DNA from: an uncultured virus (IMG/VR IMGVR_UViG_2606217110_000013)
Lineage: Duplodnaviria > Heunggongvirae > Uroviricota > Caudoviricetes
Reading direction: 5' to 3' (one strand)
IMG/VR virus record: IMGVR_UViG_2606217110_000013
Location: 57,548 to 77,547 of that record
DNA: 20,000 nt
Shown here: positions 683 to 5,213 of the stretch, in pieces
How positions within the stretch are numbered: position 1 is the first letter of the stretch
How the letters are laid out: each line of letters starts with the position of its first letter
Position numbers and translations under genes: made by a program
Notes under the pieces: model-generated
The model's input: the letters and a program-made list of their open reading frames with translations, nothing else
Told to the model about the DNA's origin: nothing
Database searches by the model: none

Positions 683-1591
683 ATGATTGGTAAGTTGTCT
701 GATTCTTTGATTGAAAATAAATACAACGAATTTAGAGAAGAAATATCTTTACTTTTTGACTATTTAAATCAGATAAATGATACAACAAAGAAAAATATAA
801 AACGTCTTCTTAAAGAAGTGGAGTATGCACAAAATCCAGATACTATTATTAATATTAATGAAACTATTAAGATTAAGTGTGGCACAACGTTAGCTCGCCA
901 TTTATGTTCAAACCCATATACAGGTTCAACATTAGAGATAGGTAACAGCGCCATTGATTTAGAAGAAAAGATAAGATTGTGTAATACTTTGAAAAATAAA
1001 CAATATCAGTGGGTTATTACTGAAGCCTATGAGTTACTGGAAGACTATATTGAGGCAATATATGTCTATACTGTATGTGTTCGAAATGATTTATGGTCCT
1101 CAAGTGATTTTGGTAAGGTTGAAGATGATGAAATTGGGAAAAGGGAAGTTTATTACAGATTATTAAAAGCAAAAAGTAACCCATCGAAAAAAATAACTAA
1201 AATTTTCAGAAATAAAATACCTGGCTTCAAAGAGATAGAAACAAACAACAAGATTGGCAAAAACTATCGCTTTAACATCAAGCTAATTGAACTACTAAGA
1301 CATACAATAGTACACAATAGTGGACGATTCAATGATACAGAAAAATTTATAAATAAGGTTTTAGATGAATCTGAAATAAACGGTAAGAAAAGAGTTATTG
1401 GAGAAAGAGCTGTTAGAAGTTACATTACTAAAGTGCAAGAAGATGATATTGTGATGCTCTTAGAAAGACCATCTGAAATTTTAGGTTCTTTTGGTGGGTA
1501 TTTTAACAGAGCAAAATTTTTACTAAGTGATATTTTAGAATACTCACTAATCATTAAAGAAGAACTAAAATCATATCTAGGCAATCATTAA
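683..1591 (+). CDS. Putative HEPN-domain RNase (302 aa), AT-rich accessory gene, candidate defence/toxin protein
   Basis: RxxxxH motif R206-HTIV-H211 (LLRHTIVHNSG) plus an upstream acidic helix EAYELLEDYI; much more AT-rich than the backbone and in opposite orientation. Confidence 0.65.
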   Translation: MIGKLSDSLIENKYNEFREEISLLFDYLNQINDTTKKNIKRLLKEVEYAQNPDTIININETIKIKCGTTLARHLCSNPYTGSTLEIGNSAIDLEEKIRLCNTLKNKQYQWVITEAYELLEDYIEAIYVYTVCVRNDLWSSSDFGKVEDDEIGKREVYYRLLKAKSNPSKKITKIFRNKIPGFKEIETNNKIGKNYRFNIKLIELLRHTIVHNSGRFNDTEKFINKVLDESEINGKKRVIGERAVRSYITKVQEDDIVMLLERPSEILGSFGGYFNRAKFLLSDILEYSLIIKEELKSYLGNH

Positions 1592-1592
1592 C

Positions 1593-1615
1593 AAAAAAGG
1601 GGCCGAAGCCCCTTT
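1593..1615 (-). terminator. Intrinsic terminator of the tRNA/ncRNA operon (possibly bidirectional)
   Basis: Minus strand AAAGGGGC-TTCG-GCCCC-TTTTTT: GC stem, C(UUCG)G tetraloop, U6 tail. Confidence 0.9.
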
Positions 1616-1689
1616 GGATTTTGCGCTTAAAAAAGTGTTGCTAGGATGTTAGCAAGCTATGGTTAAGAACGTCTGCCGTAATTGTCTAT

Positions 1690-1767
1690 CACAGCGTTGA
1701 GCGGTCTGGTTTATGTTAGCGGAGTCTTAATCTGGGTGATTAAAAGGCCAAACCGCTCAACGCTGTG
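1690..1767 (-). ncRNA. c4-antisense-like long-stem RNA A
   Basis: 20-bp terminal stem CACAGCGTTGAGCGGTTTGG/CCAGACCGCTCAACGCTGTG whose single imperfection is a G-U pair on minus; inner hairpin TTTTAATC-ACCCA-GATTAAGA; starts 2 nt after the tRNA-Ser CCA. Confidence 0.65.
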
Positions 1768-1769
1768 TC

Positions 1770-1856
1770 TGGCGGAGAGTAATGGAATCGAACCATCATC
1801 GCTTGCGCAATGGGACGGTTTTCAAGACCGCTTGAGCACCATGCTCCCTACTCTCC
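1770..1856 (-). tRNA. tRNA-Ser(UGA), non-canonical 8/4 cloverleaf
   Basis: GGAGAGTA/TACTCTCC acceptor, GCGGT-CTTGAAA-ACCGT anticodon arm, long variable arm with GCAA loop, ATGG-TTCGATT-CCAT T arm, discriminator G, encoded CCA. Confidence 0.9.
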
Positions 1857-1858
1857 GG

Positions 1859-2008
1859 CCGTTGTGGTGGCCGGTACTGAATCTCCGGCATACGGTGCAG
1901 CCAATTAGGACTACGGACGATCACCGCTCGCGAAAGGGAAGATTTGCGGCCGCATTTCCCTAACATCCAAGAAAGCTATCGCATCAGTCTGCGAATCCAC
2001 CACAACGG
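1859..2008 (-). ncRNA. tRNA-mimic structured RNA with potential loop-loop pseudoknot
   Basis: 12-bp closing stem CCGTTGTGGTGG/CCACCACAACGG, D-like hairpin CGCA-GACTGA-TGCG, T-like hairpin GCCGG-AGATTCAGTA-CCGGC, two internal stems, no anticodon arm. Confidence 0.6.
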
Positions 2009-2078
2009 TAAGATCACTACCTTTCGACCAGTCATTGTGCACATGAACGACGATTAACCGTAATGATCTTATCGTTGT
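2002..2078 (-). ncRNA. c4-antisense-like long-stem RNA B
   Basis: 19-bp stem ACAACGATAAGATCATTAC/GTAGTGATCTTACCGTTGT (one A-C, one G-U), inner stem GTCGTT/AATGAC; starts 2 nt after the tRNA-Thr CCA. Confidence 0.65.
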
Positions 2079-2080
2079 AT

Positions 2081-2156
2081 TGGTGCCGGTTAGCGGACTC
2101 GAACCGCTGACATCCTGCTTACAAGGCAGGCGCTCTACCAACTGAGCTAAACCGGC
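2081..2156 (-). tRNA. tRNA-Thr(UGU)
   Basis: GCCGGTTTAGCTCAGTTGGTAGAGC...CCTGC-CTTGTAA-GCAGG...GGTTCGAGTCC...ACCA; canonical 76-nt cloverleaf. Confidence 0.97.
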
Positions 2157-2160
2157 AATT

Positions 2161-2247
2161 TGGTGGGGAGTGATGGAGTCGAACCACCCGAGTCGCAATG
2201 ACAGTAGATTTACAGTCTACCCCGCTGCCCCTACGGACTAACTCCCC
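2161..2247 (-). tRNA. tRNA-Tyr(GUA)
   Basis: GGGGAGT/ACTCCCC acceptor, GTAGA-CTGTAAA-TCTAC anticodon arm, class II variable arm, GGTTCGACTCC, ACCA end. Confidence 0.95.
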
Positions 2248-2252
2248 TAAAT

Positions 2253-2327
2253 TGGCGATGGTGGGTGGATTCGAACCACCGACCAGTTGGTTAACAGCCA
2301 ACTGCTCTACCGCTGAGCTACACCATC
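2253..2327 (-). tRNA. tRNA-Asn(GUU)
   Basis: GATGGTG/CACCATC acceptor, GTTGG-CTGTTAA-CCAAC anticodon arm, GGTTCGAATCC, GCCA end. Confidence 0.97.
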
Positions 2328-2535
2328 AATTCAGCACTGCCAGTATTTATTACTCAACAGTGCCAATCGCGACGGTTTAGTTTCTGCCAGGAAACGCACC
2401 GCTACTTGCACTTTTCGTTTGTGCCAGACGCTTTCGACTTCGCTCAATAGTAGAAGGCAAAATCTTTAAGTAGATGATGTTTCTGAGGACAGCACCTACT
2501 TTGTAATTTATACAATGTGATGTATGGAATCATTT

Positions 2536-2599
2536 GTTGTGAAAACAGGCACCAATGGCAACAGTGGTTAAACCTACACAACAATCCTGTCTTCACAAC
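2536..2599 (-). ncRNA. Long-stem RNA C, sharing its GTTGTG arm with RNA D
   Basis: 14-bp stem GTTGTGAAGACAGG/CCTGTTTTCACAAC whose single imperfection is a G-U pair on minus. Confidence 0.5.
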
Positions 2600-2715
2600 G
2601 TTGAGGCCACTACTCCGATTGAATGTTTGCCCAACATGTTACATATCAACGCTCGCCGGTATCTCTGTGAATAGAACCTTAGAATTGATAAAAATGTAAT
2701 GGCCTCAACGTTGTG
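2594..2715 (-). ncRNA. c4-antisense-like long-stem RNA D
   Basis: 20-bp stem CACAACGTTGAGGCCATTAC/GTAGTGGCCTCAACGTTGTG (one G-U on minus) enclosing 82 nt; preceded by T-arm-like hairpin GCTGG-N9-CCAGC. Confidence 0.65.
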
Positions 2716-2793
2716 TGCTGGCTAACCATACCAGCCGGGCTACGTCGCCGCTTTTTAACCCAGTATAAACGACATAATTGAACAAAATGACGT

Positions 2794-2868
2794 AACAGGA
2801 TGGGCGGTCAGTGGCTAAGAATCCGGGAGTCATATGGAGTTGAAAATATACCAACCGCCCATTCTGTT
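2794..2868 (-). ncRNA. c4-antisense-like long-stem RNA E
   Basis: Stem AACAGAATGGGCGGTTGGT/ACTGACCGCCCATCCTGTT (one A-C near the base, two G-U on minus) enclosing 37 nt. Confidence 0.6.
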
Positions 2869-3033
2869 CCCTCCTGCGTTCTGCAATCACACTCGCTCAG
2901 TGTGTCCCATTTCGGTAACGAGGCTGGAAACTGACCTCGCTGGTGTTTGGCTTATTAGGCTACTGCCAGATAGACTTCTTCGTTTGCACTTGTATTTAAG
3001 TTCAAACAGTCGCGTCTCAACGAAAACAAAGTC

Positions 3034-3070
3034 ATCTTATACATAAAAGATAAGTAAGTAAATACTTATC
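3034..3070 (-). promoter_or_regulatory. Putative promoter of the RNA operon overlapped by 22-bp motif copy 2
   Basis: Minus TTTACT (3062-3057), 17 bp, TAAGAT (3039-3034); perfect palindrome GATAAGTA-agtaaa-TACTTATC at 3049-3070. Confidence 0.6.
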
Positions 3071-3079
3071 AATATGTTT

Positions 3080-3370
3080 TTATTCGGTTGTGACTTTTTT
3101 GATCAAGGCCACTCTACGACTAGGTGTTCTTGTAATGGTGGCAGTGAATCGTTTCGCTTGGATAGTAATGGTTTCGTTCTCCTTAAGTTGCCCGTAGCGA
3201 GTTTCCACCAGGGTGCCAAGACGCCACAGACCATCATCGATACGTTTATGACTAGCAAATTTAATCAGCAACAGTTTTACGACTAACTGACCTACGTAAA
3301 AGGCGAATGCGACTCCGGCCGCTAAGAAATAGGTGGCCAACCACCATTCCCAAGAAGTTAAATTGCTCAT
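3080..3370 (-). CDS. Hypothetical membrane protein (96 aa)
   Basis: N-terminal hydrophobic segment WWLATYFLAAGVAFAFYVGQLVVKLLLI; ATGA overlap with upstream ORF. Confidence 0.75.
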   Translation of the reverse strand: MSNLTSWEWWLATYFLAAGVAFAFYVGQLVVKLLLIKFASHKRIDDGLWRLGTLVETRYGQLKENETITIQAKRFTATITRTPSRRVALIKKVTTE

Positions 3371-3519
3371 TTTTTCACCTTTGTTTCATGAACTACCCGA
3401 TACACACGCTTTCCGATGCACAGTGTTTTGGTTTTAAGTTCCTGCTTAATTAAATCACGACAGATGCCGAAGCCGATAAGGAAGCCACCCATAAAAGCTA
3501 ATGAGATGTATGGAATCAT
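3367..3519 (-). CDS. Small membrane protein (50 aa, below ORF-track cutoff)
   Basis: Hand-translated MIPYISLAFMGGFLIGFGICRDLIKQELKTKTLCIGKRVYRVVHETKVKK; ATGA overlaps at both ends. Confidence 0.75.
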   Translation of the reverse strand: MIPYISLAFMGGFLIGFGICRDLIKQELKTKTLCIGKRVYRVVHETKVKK

Positions 3520-3731
3520 TTTAACACTCCTGATTCTACTAATTGCTGTAGCAATACTTTCCCTTTATCAGTTAACTGGTAGTTGGCCGAACACCACGTT
3601 TCAGAAACGTTTGCAACCAACCCTAAACGCTCTAACTTAGCTCGCGTTTTAGGCTTCCAGTACTCAGGGAACTCCGGCCACTTACTGATTTCATGAAGCG
3701 TTTCCTTCTCCCGTTTACTTAATACGATCAT
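3516..3731 (-). CDS. Hypothetical protein, winged-helix-like (71 aa)
   Basis: LSKREKETL...LERLGLV...YQLTDKGKVLL resembles wHTH wing pattern; GGAG upstream of start. Confidence 0.7.
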   Translation of the reverse strand: MIVLSKREKETLHEISKWPEFPEYWKPKTRAKLERLGLVANVSETWCSANYQLTDKGKVLLQQLVESGVLK

Positions 3732-3894: not shown

Positions 3895-5213
3895 TCTTTA
3901 TCTCCGATTCGATCTTCTGTATCGCGTAAGCAACGCGGCCATTTCAGTCGGGGGTGGCGTAAGCTGCCATCCGGTGTTTTCTCGTGACAATGAACCTCAA
4001 CAATACGACCACGGTACTTCTCTTTGTTGTTCCAGATCTCGTCCAGATATTTATGCTTAATACCGCTCGCACGAACGATGACGCCGTTTTCAAGACGAAT
4101 AACAATTTTTCCAAGTGTGTTGGCAAAACCAGAGTCCGGGTCGCCCGGCTCAAAGTCGATAATTTCACCATCTTCTGAATCTTCGTCTTTTAACTTCCAC
4201 CAGCTGCGGGTACGTTTAAACTCGTAAACAGAGTTCGGATCTTTGCCCATCTCCCCTTCTTCGTTATCGTCCAGGCGTTTCATGAAGCGTTCGATGAAGT
4301 CTTCGTGGCTATGGATGATATAGAACGGATGCAGGTGAATATCTTGTGTGTAGCCTTCACTGCGATCGTTTTTGAACAACGCCACCAGCATAGCCAGGCG
4401 CTCTTTCAGCTTCATACCTGTCTTTGCATACTCTTTGGATTTAGCCTGTGCTCGCCATTCCGGTAGGAAGAAGTCGAAAACATGATAAATAGCGCCAATT
4501 GCCTGCACGTTCTTTTTGCGCAATGCAGATACGGACTGGTTAAATGAACCGGCAGTTCCTTCACCATCGAAGAAGATGTGTTTGTGGCCTGAAAGTTTGC
4601 CTAATTCGAGCATGGCTGGCTTTAGGTGATCGAGAGACGTGATTGGATTACCAGTACGAGAAAGGAAGTTAACCTCTTCCTCGTCAACAATAACCTCGCA
4701 AATTACTCGCAAACCATCGAGCTTAAGACTGCCAATCATTGGCCATTTTGCTTTAGGATTTGGCTTGAAGGGGTATTTGTCGCCTTTTTCTTTATACGGT
4801 GACGCCAGCTGCACCTCGAATTTCGGAATGGGATTTTCAAAAACCTTGTTGCATAGGCTAATCCCAACGCCAGCTTTCGGGTCTTTTAAGAGGAAACGAC
4901 GGAACACGTCCTGCCCATCGGCGCACATTGACGCCACGATAGACTCAACAGCTGCTATTGCTGCGTTCCCCGTTAGCTCGCGAGAGGCCAGCTTGTTCAG
5001 TACATCAATGGCTTTTTCGTCACTTGGGATGGACTCACTAAGCGGCTCTGCCACTTTGTATTTCTTTACCCCAAAACGGATGAAAGGGTTGAGCATCAAT
5101 GAAACCATGCTTTGCTCGAAGTCATCCATGTTGGCCAATGCCTCTTTTTTTGCATTGGTTCCCATAGCTTTCATTTCGTCCAGCTTATGCTTAAGTGCGA
5201 TCAACTTTTTCAT
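3891..5213 (-). CDS. lig: ATP-dependent DNA ligase
   Basis: Motif I KLDGLR, III FFDGE, IIIa YHVFD, IV EGEMGKD, V WWKLK, VI LRHPR; GGAGG RBS. Confidence 0.95.
   Translation of the reverse strand: MKKLIALKHKLDEMKAMGTNAKKEALANMDDFEQSMVSLMLNPFIRFGVKKYKVAEPLSESIPSDEKAIDVLNKLASRELTGNAAIAAVESIVASMCADGQDVFRRFLLKDPKAGVGISLCNKVFENPIPKFEVQLASPYKEKGDKYPFKPNPKAKWPMIGSLKLDGLRVICEVIVDEEEVNFLSRTGNPITSLDHLKPAMLELGKLSGHKHIFFDGEGTAGSFNQSVSALRKKNVQAIGAIYHVFDFFLPEWRAQAKSKEYAKTGMKLKERLAMLVALFKNDRSEGYTQDIHLHPFYIIHSHEDFIERFMKRLDDNEEGEMGKDPNSVYEFKRTRSWWKLKDEDSEDGEIIDFEPGDPDSGFANTLGKIVIRLENGVIVRASGIKHKYLDEIWNNKEKYRGRIVEVHCHEKTPDGSLRHPRLKWPRCLRDTEDRIGDKE

What the first reader, a model, noticed from the sequence alone, without database searches (positions are those of the whole stretch)
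1593..3070. A 1.45-kb RNA-only operon: array of c4-like antisense RNAs with different loops, interleaved with tRNAs
Seen: from a promoter at ~3035-3062 to a UUCG terminator at 1615-1593 the minus strand has no credible CDS. It reads RNA E, T-like hairpin, RNA D, RNA C, tRNA-Asn, Tyr, Thr, RNA B, tRNA mimic, tRNA-Ser, RNA A. RNAs A, B, D and E have 19-20-bp closing stems with related ends (ACAACG/ACAGCG/AACAG ... CGTTGT/CGCTGT/CTGTT) that differ in sequence yet keep pairing, while their interiors are unrelated. Most stem imperfections are G-U only on minus. Known: P1/P7 c4 RNA is an RNase P-matured long-stem antisense RNA acting on an adjacent icd-ant target. No such target is in this window. 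Inference: a conserved-scaffold, variable-guide cassette that uses tRNA processing to release several trans-acting antisense RNAs, aimed at the element's own genes, host genes or competing phages. The c4 resemblance is from recalled architecture.
Basis: partly seen in the sequence, partly recalled or inferred. Interest (0 to 1): 0.85.

Follow-up and report, generated by a model that had tools for sequence, protein, structure and literature searches.

The report
Phage RNA operon targeting ribosome rescue
This gene-free stretch of an E. coli phage-plasmid makes only RNAs: four tRNAs, conserved long hairpins, and a leading small RNA that copies the message half of the cell's ribosome-rescue RNA and can pair with it, so it may tamper with how stalled ribosomes are rescued.

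Summary
Window 1593-3070 (minus strand) is a protein-free RNA operon of an SSU5/pHCM2-type phage-plasmid. It has 4 tRNAs, four 19-23-bp hairpins, a tRNA-like RNA and a terminator.

The c4 reading does not hold:
- The Rfam C4 model finds nothing here or in phage Cyrano, yet finds P7's real c4.
- Three hairpin interiors are conserved across relatives, not variable.
- No target in the element beats shuffled controls.

What is there is a mosaic RNA module. It is shared with the C1-controlled ban-operon leader of P7, with lambdoid late leaders, and with tRNA clusters of virulent phages. Its promoter lies under a palindrome repeated through the element, probably a repressor operator.

Its first RNA (3027-2876) is abundant in one RNA-seq run. 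It carries a tmRNA-type tag frame (ANEEVYLAVA, 10 codons plus stop) conserved at the peptide level, a stop-in-loop helix and a covarying pseudoknot. It has no tRNA-like domain. Its 5' arm is complementary to host tmRNA around the resume codon, and one hairpin interior pairs with tmRNA 15-65.

Most likely the operon supplies tRNAs and interferes with, or re-templates, host trans-translation. The long stems are probably processing signals.

This scan noted the tmRNA-like RNA and the hairpin family before, on other DNA. I found no description in print.

The parts
3055..3068 (.). 14-bp palindrome over the -35 region; probable repressor operator
   Evidence: In the own 77.5-kb record it has 7 forward and 6 reverse matches at up to 2 mismatches, against 0 and 0 for the reversed control. 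It is conserved in relatives. Binding was not tested.
3034..3062 (-). Inferred sigma-70 promoter: TTTACT, 17 nt, TAAGAT
   Evidence: Sequence and spacing are conserved across SSU5-like lineages; the Klebsiella type has TATGAT as the -10. The consensus scan does not report it, since it matches 8 of 12 positions.
2876..3027 (-). Leader RNA: tmRNA-like tag-template RNA with no tRNA-like domain
   Evidence: Only sub-threshold Rfam tmRNA matches. Structure covaries: 9 of 18 pairs change on both sides, and 0 of 500 shuffles do as well. In run X3, depth is 611 in bin 2905-3071 against 6-16 around it, with adapter-bearing ends at 3009-3013 and 2880.
3003..3027 (-). 5' arm complementary to host tmRNA positions 81-105 (resume codon and tag codons 1-5)
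   Evidence: Duplex energy -26.3 kcal/mol. 0 of 500 shuffles reach it on tmRNA 70-112, and 3 of 100 on whole tmRNA. All 58 family rows score -22 kcal/mol or lower, and 57 of 58 keep GTTTTCG.
2955..2987 (-). Tag reading frame: GCA resume codon, 10 codons (ANEEVYLAVA), UAA; a second UAA follows
   Evidence: Present in 89 of 94 related regions. 110 of 120 IMG/VR pattern matches have exactly 10 codons, with synonymous codon changes and all three stop codons.
2794..2868 (-).
   Evidence: The window has a 26-nt deletion at 2864 that shortens the stem and removes a small upstream hairpin.
2594..2715 (-).
   Evidence: 99.2% of cells paired; 3 pairs change on both sides; 0 of 500 shuffles do as well.
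2536..2599 (-). Hairpin 3: 14-bp stem whose 5' arm reuses the last bases of hairpin 2's 3' arm
   Evidence: The Klebsiella form keeps the pairing with different letters.
2519..2534 (-). 16-mer identical to an arm of a palindromic site elsewhere in the element; a DNA-level half-site
   Evidence: 3 exact copies plus a two-armed site in the own record, against 0 for the reversed control. Invariant in relatives.
2328..2518 (-).
   Evidence: Conserved blocks and compensatory changes seen in the alignment. Folding alone is not significant: z -1.5.
2253..2327 (-). tRNA-Asn (GUU)
   Evidence: Present in 76 of 93 related regions.
2161..2247 (-). tRNA-Tyr (GUA)
2081..2156 (-). tRNA-Thr (UGU)
2001..2079 (-).
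   Evidence: Stem. Cassette turnover. Duplex -36.3 kcal/mol, z -6.5, the only one of 76 interiors to stand out; 0 of 100 shuffles reach it.
1859..2008 (-). tRNA-like scaffold RNA ('tRNA mimic'): acceptor-like stem, D-like and T-like hairpins, variable middle
   Evidence: 12 distinct variants share the ends but have different middles. No Rfam match.
1770..1856 (-). tRNA-Ser (UGA)
1690..1767 (-).
   Evidence: 99.8% of cells paired; 2 pairs change on both sides; 0 of 500 shuffles do as well.
1596..1615 (-). Intrinsic terminator: 8-bp stem with UUCG loop, followed by a U run

Best explanation
This is a repressor-controlled, protein-free RNA operon. It is built from RNA modules that enterobacterial phages exchange.

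Transcription starts under a palindrome that recurs through the element, so the operon is probably shut off with the other lytic operons in the plasmid state. The same module in P7 sits behind the C1 operator Op(ban).

The transcript is then cut into four kinds of piece:
1. A roughly 130-150-nt leader RNA.
2. Hairpin-clamped RNAs, whose 19-28-bp stems are most likely cutting and boundary signals of the RNase III type.
3. Four tRNAs.
4. A tRNA-like scaffold RNA.

The leader RNA imitates the message half of tmRNA. It has an upstream A-rich stretch, a GCA resume codon, a 10-codon tag ending ...YLAVA, the stop codon in a helix loop, and then a pseudoknot. It has no tRNA half. Its 5' arm can pair with the host's own tmRNA exactly over the host resume codon. 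The interior of hairpin 4 can pair with the 5' part of tmRNA.

The likeliest function is therefore twofold: to supply tRNAs, and to block or re-template host trans-translation during phage growth.

Shown here: the anatomy, the conservation, the covariation, the peptide-level constraint on the tag frame, the complementarity to tmRNA, and abundance in one RNA-seq run.

Inferred: the cutting enzymes, repression by the palindrome, and any effect on ribosome rescue.
For: Anatomy: see the observation check.

RNA-level selection on the window's minus strand:
- Stems A, D and E are 99.8%, 99.2% and 97.3% paired over 21, 28 and 27 distinct variants.
- They have 2, 3 and 1 pairs changed on both sides.
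- There are 118 G.U cells against 16 A.C cells.

Shared module:
- The P7 record annotates Op(ban) as controlling the tRNA genes.
- The P7 leader holds homologues of the leader RNA and of hairpin 1. After its tRNAs come hairpins with the same ends, the mimic, and an unannotated tRNA-Ser.
- An HK620-type prophage has the leader RNA, a hairpin and the mimic between Q and the holin gene.
- The leader RNA also lies in the tRNA clusters of a Felixounavirus and a Kuttervirus and in an N4-like phage.
- It matches 766 phage records and 258 of 5426 complete E. coli genomes.

Operator.

Tag frame:
-.
- The Kuttervirus copy keeps Ala-Asn with other codons, GCU AAU.
- The overlapping +1 frame is broken in several lineages (read).

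Leader structure, including the pseudoknot.

Pairing with tmRNA.

Expression: run X3.
Against: - No tRNA-like domain was found. ARAGORN reports no tmRNA in the window, in the first 11 regions scanned or in 5 distant loci, and RF00023 gives nothing at the locus. My own search for a T-arm plus acceptor pairing found no consistent partner. Without such a domain, no known route puts a tag template into a ribosome.
- All Rfam tmRNA matches are below threshold: 14-23 bits against cut-offs of 47 and 84.
- Overall similarity of the operon to E. coli ssrA is at chance level: score 20 against a shuffled mean of 20.1.
- With a 63-nt upstream stretch that runs into the promoter, the window's pairing with tmRNA is not better than shuffles (68 of 200). 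The same holds for the Felixounavirus type (80 of 200) and for one 80-kb type (48 of 200). The signal appears only with the transcribed 38 nt or a restricted target.
- The abundant RNA in X3 seems to start at 3009-3013, inside the anti-tmRNA arm.
- X3 is one run of assembled contigs. It gives no strand and no true ends, and runs X1 and X2 are flat.
- The hairpin-4 result is 1 of 76 tests, and the duplex is rich in G.U pairs and interrupted.
- RNase III cutting and repressor binding are untested.
- The conserved loop motifs of hairpins 1, 2 and 5 remain unexplained.
Confidence: 0.55

Rival explanations
1. First reader's model. The long-stem RNAs are c4-like antisense regulators on a conserved scaffold with variable guide loops. 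tRNA processing releases them, and they are aimed at genes of the element, the host or competing phages.
For: - The stems are conserved RNA structures next to tRNAs.
- The slot after tRNA-Thr or tRNA-Asn holds at least five different hairpin cassettes among relatives.
- One interior (hairpin 4) and the leader's 5' arm are antisense to a host RNA.
Against: - No C4 match, with a working positive control.
- No CCA after any stem.
- The interiors of three of the four hairpins are conserved rather than variable.
- No complementarity to the element's own record above shuffles for any of 9 pieces.
- 75 of 76 interiors show nothing against tmRNA.
- Host-wide targets were not searched.
Confidence: 0.1
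2. Pure processing and stability architecture. The stems are only RNase III or exonuclease-blocking punctuation, or shields against Rho termination, for a tRNA operon. The leader is a cis-acting leader, and its likeness to a tmRNA tag has no function of its own.
For: - Stem lengths of 19-28 bp fit RNase III substrates (established knowledge).
- Hairpins begin 2 nt after the CCA of tRNA-Thr and tRNA-Ser.
- The same hairpin ends occur in lambda's late leader. RNase III sites have been reported there, but I recall that paper (Daniels et al. 1988) and did not see it.
- A long untranslated transcript needs protection from Rho.
Against: - It does not explain invariant single-stranded loop motifs kept across genera.
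- It does not explain the 10-codon frame kept with synonymous changes and three different stop codons in 110 of 120 loci.
- It does not explain the pseudoknot.
- It does not explain an arm complementary to tmRNA in all 58 family rows.
Confidence: 0.2
3. DNA-level elements. The inverted repeats are recombination or inversion sites, or the boundary sequences at which phages exchange modules, and not RNA structures.
For: - In one relative (L063) the interior of hairpin 2 is the exact reverse complement of that of another (L089), an inversion between the arms.
- Shared ends (CACARCG ... CGYTGTG) sit at module boundaries in unrelated phages.
- A recombinase-arm half-site lies inside the operon.
Against: - Strand-specific G.U pairs (118 against 16) and compensatory changes show selection on one transcribed strand.
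- The elements always lie in the sense direction of an operon.
- The inversion is seen in 1 of 28 variants.
- Module exchange at the stems may well occur in addition to the RNA role.
Confidence: 0.07

Closest known systems
tmRNA (SsrA; Rfam RF00023, permuted forms RF04321 and RF01850)
   Same: - A-rich stretch followed by a GCA AAC GA... resume region.
- A 10-codon tag of the AN(D/E)xx(Y/F)LA(V/A)A type, against ANDENYALAA in E. coli K-12 (ARAGORN).
- The stop codon in a helix loop, followed by a pseudoknot.
   Different: - No tRNA-like domain, no alanine-accepting stem and no CCA end.
- About 150 nt rather than 363.
- Below every Rfam cut-off.
- Carries an arm antisense to the host tmRNA.
- The tag ends ...AVA, not ...LAA.
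'TLD-only' tmRNA of mycobacteriophage DS6A (Hudson, Lau and Williams 2014, PMC4131195; passages seen)
   Same: A phage keeps only one half of tmRNA. That paper says a similar molecule strongly inhibits tmRNA.
   Different: It is the mirror image: DS6A keeps the tRNA half, and this RNA keeps the message half. That survey of RefSeq plasmids and viruses reported phage ssrA only in mycobacteriophages and Bacillus phage G.
P1/P7 ban operon with its tRNA genes, controlled by the C1 operator Op(ban) (annotation of NC_050152)
   Same: Homologous module: leader RNA, hairpin 1, tRNA-Asn and tRNA-Thr, hairpins, the mimic and tRNA-Ser, all behind a repressor operator.
   Different: In P7 the operon runs on into protein genes (terB, ban). 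Only the tRNAs are annotated there. The operator sequences are unrelated.
P1/P7 c4 antisense RNA (Rfam RF01695)
   Same: A small phage RNA closed by a long stem formed from its 5' and 3' ends.
   Different: No sequence or structure match. No adjacent icd-ant target. No CCA. In P7 it lies in a different place from this module.
Small stable RNAs of the phage T4 tRNA cluster (species 1 and 2) and E. coli tRNA spacer RNAs such as 3'ETS-leuZ (recalled, not checked here)
   Same: Functional or stable non-tRNA RNAs are co-transcribed with tRNAs and released by tRNA processing.
   Different: No sequence relation was tested. The RNAs here have long clamp stems and a tmRNA theme.
Lambda late leader: RNase III processing sites (recalled) and the Hfq-bound sRNA LPR2 (named in review PMC12197685, passages seen)
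   Same: Lambda's leader holds a hairpin with the same ends. Its interior is nearly identical to the interior of a P7 hairpin of this family.
   Different: Whether those lambda features coincide with this hairpin was not checked. Lambda lacks the leader RNA and the tRNAs.

Membership tests
c4 antisense RNA (RF01695) | Match to the C4 covariance model (cut-off 45 bits) | tested here: not met
   0 matches at E<=10 in the window, the own record and the Cyrano genome. The positive control, P7 c4, scores 69.6 bits.
c4 antisense RNA (RF01695) | Loops complementary to a nearby target in the same element (icd-ant leader) | tested here: not met
   None of 9 pieces exceeds dinucleotide shuffles against the own record, which is 71% complete.
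c4 antisense RNA (RF01695) | RNase P maturation with a tRNA-like 3' CCA context | tested here: inconclusive
   No CCA follows any of the four stems (read). Cleavage itself cannot be tested here.
tmRNA | Tag reading frame without a start codon, beginning at a resume codon and ending in an Ala-rich hydrophobic tail plus a stop | tested here: met
   ANEEVYLAVA plus UAA UAA. The frame is kept in 89 of 94 relatives and in 110 of 120 pattern matches, with synonymous changes and varying stop codons.
tmRNA | Helix around the stop codon, followed by a pseudoknot | tested here: met
   18 pairs in 5 helices; 92.2% of cells paired; 9 pairs change on both sides; 0 of 500 shuffles do as well.
tmRNA | tRNA-like domain: acceptor stem with G3.U70, T-arm and 3' CCA | tested here: not met
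   ARAGORN finds no tmRNA. RF00023 gives nothing at the locus. My own search found no consistent partner.
tmRNA | Score above the Rfam gathering threshold | tested here: not met
   RF04321 scores 21.5-22.7 bits against 47. RF01850 scores 14.4-17.3 bits against 84.
tRNA | Cloverleaf with an anticodon | tested here: met
   4 genes. The 'mimic' is not called a tRNA by ARAGORN or Rfam.
RNase III processing stems | About two turns of nearly perfect double-stranded RNA | tested here: met
   Stems of 19-23 bp here and up to 28 bp in relatives.
RNase III processing stems | Cleavage that depends on rnc | not testable with these tools
   The RNA-seq contigs show no ends within the stems.
Repressor-operator controlled phage operon (P1 Op(ban) type) | Operator overlapping the promoter and repeated at other operons | tested here: met
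   13 matches against 0 for the control in the own record. Binding by a repressor cannot be tested here.

The most novel reading that the evidence does not exclude
The leader RNA docks with its 5' arm onto the host's own tmRNA over the resume codon, and so offers its own tag template to rescued ribosomes. Unfinished proteins would then receive a phage tail (...YLAVA) in place of the degradation tag (...YALAA), or not be tagged at all. The interior of hairpin 4 clamps the 5' part of tmRNA as a second grip. The operon would be a phage device that takes over ribosome rescue, built from one half of tmRNA plus antisense handles. The same device would be present in hundreds of temperate and virulent enterobacterial phages.
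Probability: 0.3. Interest if true: 0.9.

Novelty: new variant of a known kind. Interest (0 to 1): 0.78.

Why it matters
Phage tRNA clusters are usually annotated as tRNAs plus empty spacers. Here the spacers hold conserved structured RNAs.

The leading RNA belongs to a family found in 766 phage records and in about 5% of complete E. coli genomes. It is almost never annotated, and it points at a specific host process, trans-translation.

If the link to tmRNA is real, it opens an unrecognised front in phage-host conflict. It would also explain why such different phages keep this RNA beside their tRNAs.

Even on the cautious reading, the locus gives a clean, testable set of RNA processing signals and swappable RNA cargo. 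The finding also corrects annotation: several records call spurious small ORFs across these RNAs.

Tried and rejected
- c4 family: rejected.
- Y RNA, GOLLD, ROOL and other Rfam families: no match at E<=10 over 1400-3300, 1850-2015 or 2860-3040, apart from tRNAs and weak tmRNA hits.
- Coding potential: 0 of 9 ORFs hit Pfam. The 26-nt indel in relatives breaks the 61-aa frame. An upstream in-frame UUG is not kept in frame in relatives.
- Antisense targets inside the element: none above shuffles.
- General homology of the operon to E. coli ssrA: at chance level. A shared 10-mer is not significant.
- E. coli-wide blastn with the leader RNA: no hit to chromosomal ssrA at E<=10.
- A tRNA-like partner for the tag RNA: none is consistent across 10 lineages.
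- boxA-like antitermination signal: the 3' arms of some relatives' cassettes resemble the boxA core as I recall it. The window's operon has no such heptamer, and window-wide counts are at chance (8 found, 5.8 expected).
- Integron attC-like and MITE-like readings: considered from the inverted-repeat shape. Dropped because of the strand-specific G.U pairs.
- Raw-read run X16: nothing laid, so it is no test.
- Literature: 10 searches found no description of this operon, of the hairpin family or of a tag-only tmRNA-like phage RNA. The searches for 'late leader' plus RNase III and for 'ban operon' returned 0 papers. The tag-peptide string search returned only unrelated matches.
Full report
**What the window is.** The stretch matches Escherichia phage CMS-2020a at 98.8% and phage Cyrano at about 96%. 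In the plasmid collection, 183 of the 1679 matching records cover at least 80% of it. They include pHCM2 of Salmonella Typhi, Klebsiella and Enterobacter plasmids, and part of Yersinia pMT. It is therefore an SSU5/pHCM2-type phage-plasmid. Upstream on the same strand lie a DNA ligase gene and small ORFs. Downstream, a 302-aa ORF of no known family converges on the operon.

**Checking the observation.**
- ARAGORN finds four minus-strand tRNAs: Ser, Thr, Tyr and Asn.
- They fold far better than shuffled sequence: z -10.1, -4.2, -6.1 and -3.2.
- In the element's own 77.5-kb record, 4 of the 12 minus-strand stems with at least 17 pairs fall in this 1.45 kb.
- None of 9 mechanical ORFs hits Pfam.
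- The terminator is found by the scan. The promoter is not; it is inferred from conservation.
- Folding either strand gives similar energies, so a single sequence cannot name the strand.

**Relatives.** A 17-base pattern from hairpin 1 fetched 86 stretches from IMG/VR. Together with 10 named loci and the window, these gave 93 distinct regions out of 97. The tRNA content varies:

| tRNAs present | Regions |
|---|---|
| Asn only | 35 |
| Asn-Tyr-Thr-Ser | 19 |
| Asn-Ser | 17 |
| none (truncated or unrelated) | 17 |
| Asn-Thr-Ser | 4 |
| Asn-Tyr-Thr | 1 |

I aligned 27, 28 and 21 rows for them. For hairpin 2 I left out L063, whose interior is inverted, and added the window.

| Hairpin | Cells paired | Pairs changed on both sides | Shuffles reaching the covariation score |
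|---|---|---|---|

Hairpin 1 varies mainly by one-sided G.U changes. It has one position that is A.C in 14 rows, G-C in 9 and A-U in 4.

Over the three stems there are 118 G.U cells at 14 pair positions, against 16 A.C cells at 3 positions. Cells count sequences, not events, and the rows are related. Even so, the asymmetry points to RNA read from the window's minus strand.

**The interiors are not variable guides.** Each of these three hairpins keeps loop motifs across genera:
- Hairpin 5: AAGACUCCGC.
- Hairpin 1: UCCCGG.
- Hairpin 2: CACAGAG, a small GGG-loop hairpin that itself covaries, and AAUCGG.

These are seen. Only the slot after tRNA-Thr or tRNA-Asn changes. It holds at least five hairpin types, all with ends of the CACAAC...GUUGUG kind.

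**c4.** The Rfam C4 model finds nothing in the window, in the own record or in the complete Cyrano genome. It does find P7's c4 at 69.6 bits, far from P7's tRNA region. No stem is followed by CCA. No piece of the operon pairs with the element's own record better than shuffles.

**Control of the operon.** A 14-bp palindrome covers the inferred -35 region. In the own record it has 13 matches at up to 2 mismatches, against none for the reversed control.

In P7 the homologous tRNA region lies behind the annotated C1 operator Op(ban). The P7 stretch contains:
- homologues of the leader RNA, with one helix changed from CGAGG/CCUCG to CGGGG/CCCCG, and of hairpin 1;
- after tRNA-Thr, two hairpins with the same ends, the mimic at 97.5% identity, an unannotated tRNA-Ser, and a further hairpin.

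The interior of that last hairpin is almost the same as a segment of lambda's late leader.

**The leader RNA.** The 150 nt after the promoter are the best conserved part of the operon. In RNA-seq run X3, contig depth is 611 in bin 2905-3071 and 76 in the next bin, against 6-16 around them. Adapter-bearing contig ends lie at 3009-3013 and 2880. That suggests an abundant RNA of about 130 nt. Runs X1 and X2 are flat, and X16 laid nothing. These are contigs from one run, so strand and true ends are not shown.

A relaxed Rfam scan gave weak matches to permuted tmRNA models over this RNA. The same model picks the homologous spot as its only match in the own record, in Cyrano and in P7, at 21.5-22.7 bits against a cut-off of 47.

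The matched part is a reading frame. It starts with GCA at 2987, runs for 10 codons (ANEEVYLAVA), and ends in UAA UAA. E. coli K-12's tag is ANDENYALAA.
- The frame is present in 89 of 94 related regions.
- Within SSU5-like elements, codons 6-10 change only synonymously.
- A scan that fixed only the first 9 bases and a 9-mer downstream returned 120 loci. Of these, 110 have exactly 10 codons of the form AN(D/E)xx(Y/F)LA(V/A)A. The last Ala uses GCC, GCT, GCG or GCA, and the stop is TAA, TAG or TGA. The other 10 are unrelated chance matches.
- Copies lie in an HK620-type late leader, a Felixounavirus tRNA cluster, an N4-like phage and a Kuttervirus. The Kuttervirus copy spells Ala-Asn as GCU AAU.
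- The overlapping +1 frame, which has an AUG, is broken in several lineages.

The helix around the stop codon, the next hairpin, a pseudoknot and a fourth helix all covary. Of 18 pairs, 9 change on both sides, and 0 of 500 shuffles do as well.

The HK620-type copy of the RNA matches 766 phage records. The window's own copy matches 258 of 5426 complete E. coli genomes, almost always unannotated.

**What it lacks.** No tRNA-like domain was found:
- ARAGORN finds no tmRNA.
- RF00023 gives nothing at the locus.
- My own search for a T-arm plus acceptor pairing found nothing consistent.
- Overall similarity to ssrA is at chance level.

It is therefore not a tmRNA, but it is built like the message half of one.

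**Pairing with the host tmRNA.** I tested this.
- For six lineages, the 63 nt upstream of the resume codon pair with tmRNA within positions 54-139, at -40 to -47 kcal/mol. No shuffle out of 200 reaches this in five of them, and 5 of 200 do in P7.
- For the window, the Felixounavirus type and one other type, the same test fails: 68, 80 and 48 of 200 shuffles do as well. In the window, the 63 nt run into the promoter.
- With the transcribed 38 nt only, the window's arm pairs with tmRNA 81-105 at -26.3 kcal/mol. Here 3 of 100 shuffles reach it on whole tmRNA, and 0 of 500 on positions 70-112.
- All 58 aligned family members reach -22 kcal/mol or lower, and every duplex ends at tmRNA 105-106. Of the 58, 57 keep GTTTTCG.

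Of 76 distinct hairpin interiors tested against tmRNA, one stands out: hairpin 4 of this window. It pairs with tmRNA 15-65 at -36.3 kcal/mol, z -6.5.

**Reading.** The anatomy is firm. The function is inferred. The operon most likely supplies tRNAs and acts on trans-translation.
- The long stems most plausibly mark cutting sites and hold exchangeable RNA cargo.
- The conserved loops of hairpins 1, 2 and 5 are unexplained.
- The tRNA mimic is a scaffold with fixed ends and a variable middle, in 12 variants.

**Literature.** In the passages I read, Hudson et al. 2014 (PMC4131195) found phage ssrA only in mycobacteriophages and phage G, plus the TLD-only DS6A form. The 2025 tmRNA database paper (PMC11915505) mentions only that form among phages. 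A 2025 review of phage sRNAs (PMC12197685) never mentions tmRNA. I did not read their supplements.

This scan has noted the tag RNA and the clamp hairpins before, on other DNA.

Noticed in passing
window 2519-2534 (minus); also 3505-3520 (minus), and own record G000 50864-50879 and 56894-56926: An invariant 16-mer inside the RNA operon is identical to one arm of a palindromic site about 600 bases before the window start. It has three exact copies in the record.
   Followed up: partly
L063 (hairpin 2 homologue) compared with L089: The interior between the two arms of hairpin 2 is an exact reverse complement in one relative. This is a DNA inversion between the 19-bp arms, seen in 1 of 28 variants.
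   Followed up: no
window 2864: Compared with nearly all relatives and with the RNA-seq contigs, this window lacks 26 nt. The loss lies between two AACA repeats. It removes a small covarying hairpin and shortens hairpin 1 from 27-28 bp to 18-19 bp.
   Followed up: partly
relatives' cassettes (for example L004 1146-1222 and L026 1053-1128), P7 locus L105, lambda L104: The 3' arms of several cassette hairpins read like the boxA antitermination core as I recall it, but they are paired inside the stem. The window's own operon has no such heptamer.
   Followed up: partly
L010 (Yersinia pMT) 1501-2007, next to 2019-2924: In pMT the conserved RNA module stops after hairpin 2 and abuts caf1R. The F1 capsule operon thus sits where other elements carry the tRNAs and accessory genes. 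In other relatives the same downstream position holds an AbiGi-type gene or a recombinase gene.
   Followed up: no
L119 3120-3230 and IMG/VR locus L129 (downstream of the tag RNA): Some relatives' clamp hairpins enclose a canonical T-arm directly before the 3' arm of the stem. One 47-kb phage type has a T-arm followed by a stretch resembling the 3' acceptor strand of tmRNA.
   Followed up: partly
L001 (Cyrano) 4024-4236; AYO145A locus L121 1486-1626: Database records annotate small 'hypothetical protein' genes across these RNAs, on the opposite strand. They are probably spurious.
   Followed up: no
window 1997-2008 and 2594-2599: The last bases of the 3' arm of hairpins 4 and 2 (CGUUGUG) double as the 5' strand of the next structure, the mimic and hairpin 3 respectively. 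The two folds therefore compete or form in sequence.
   Followed up: no
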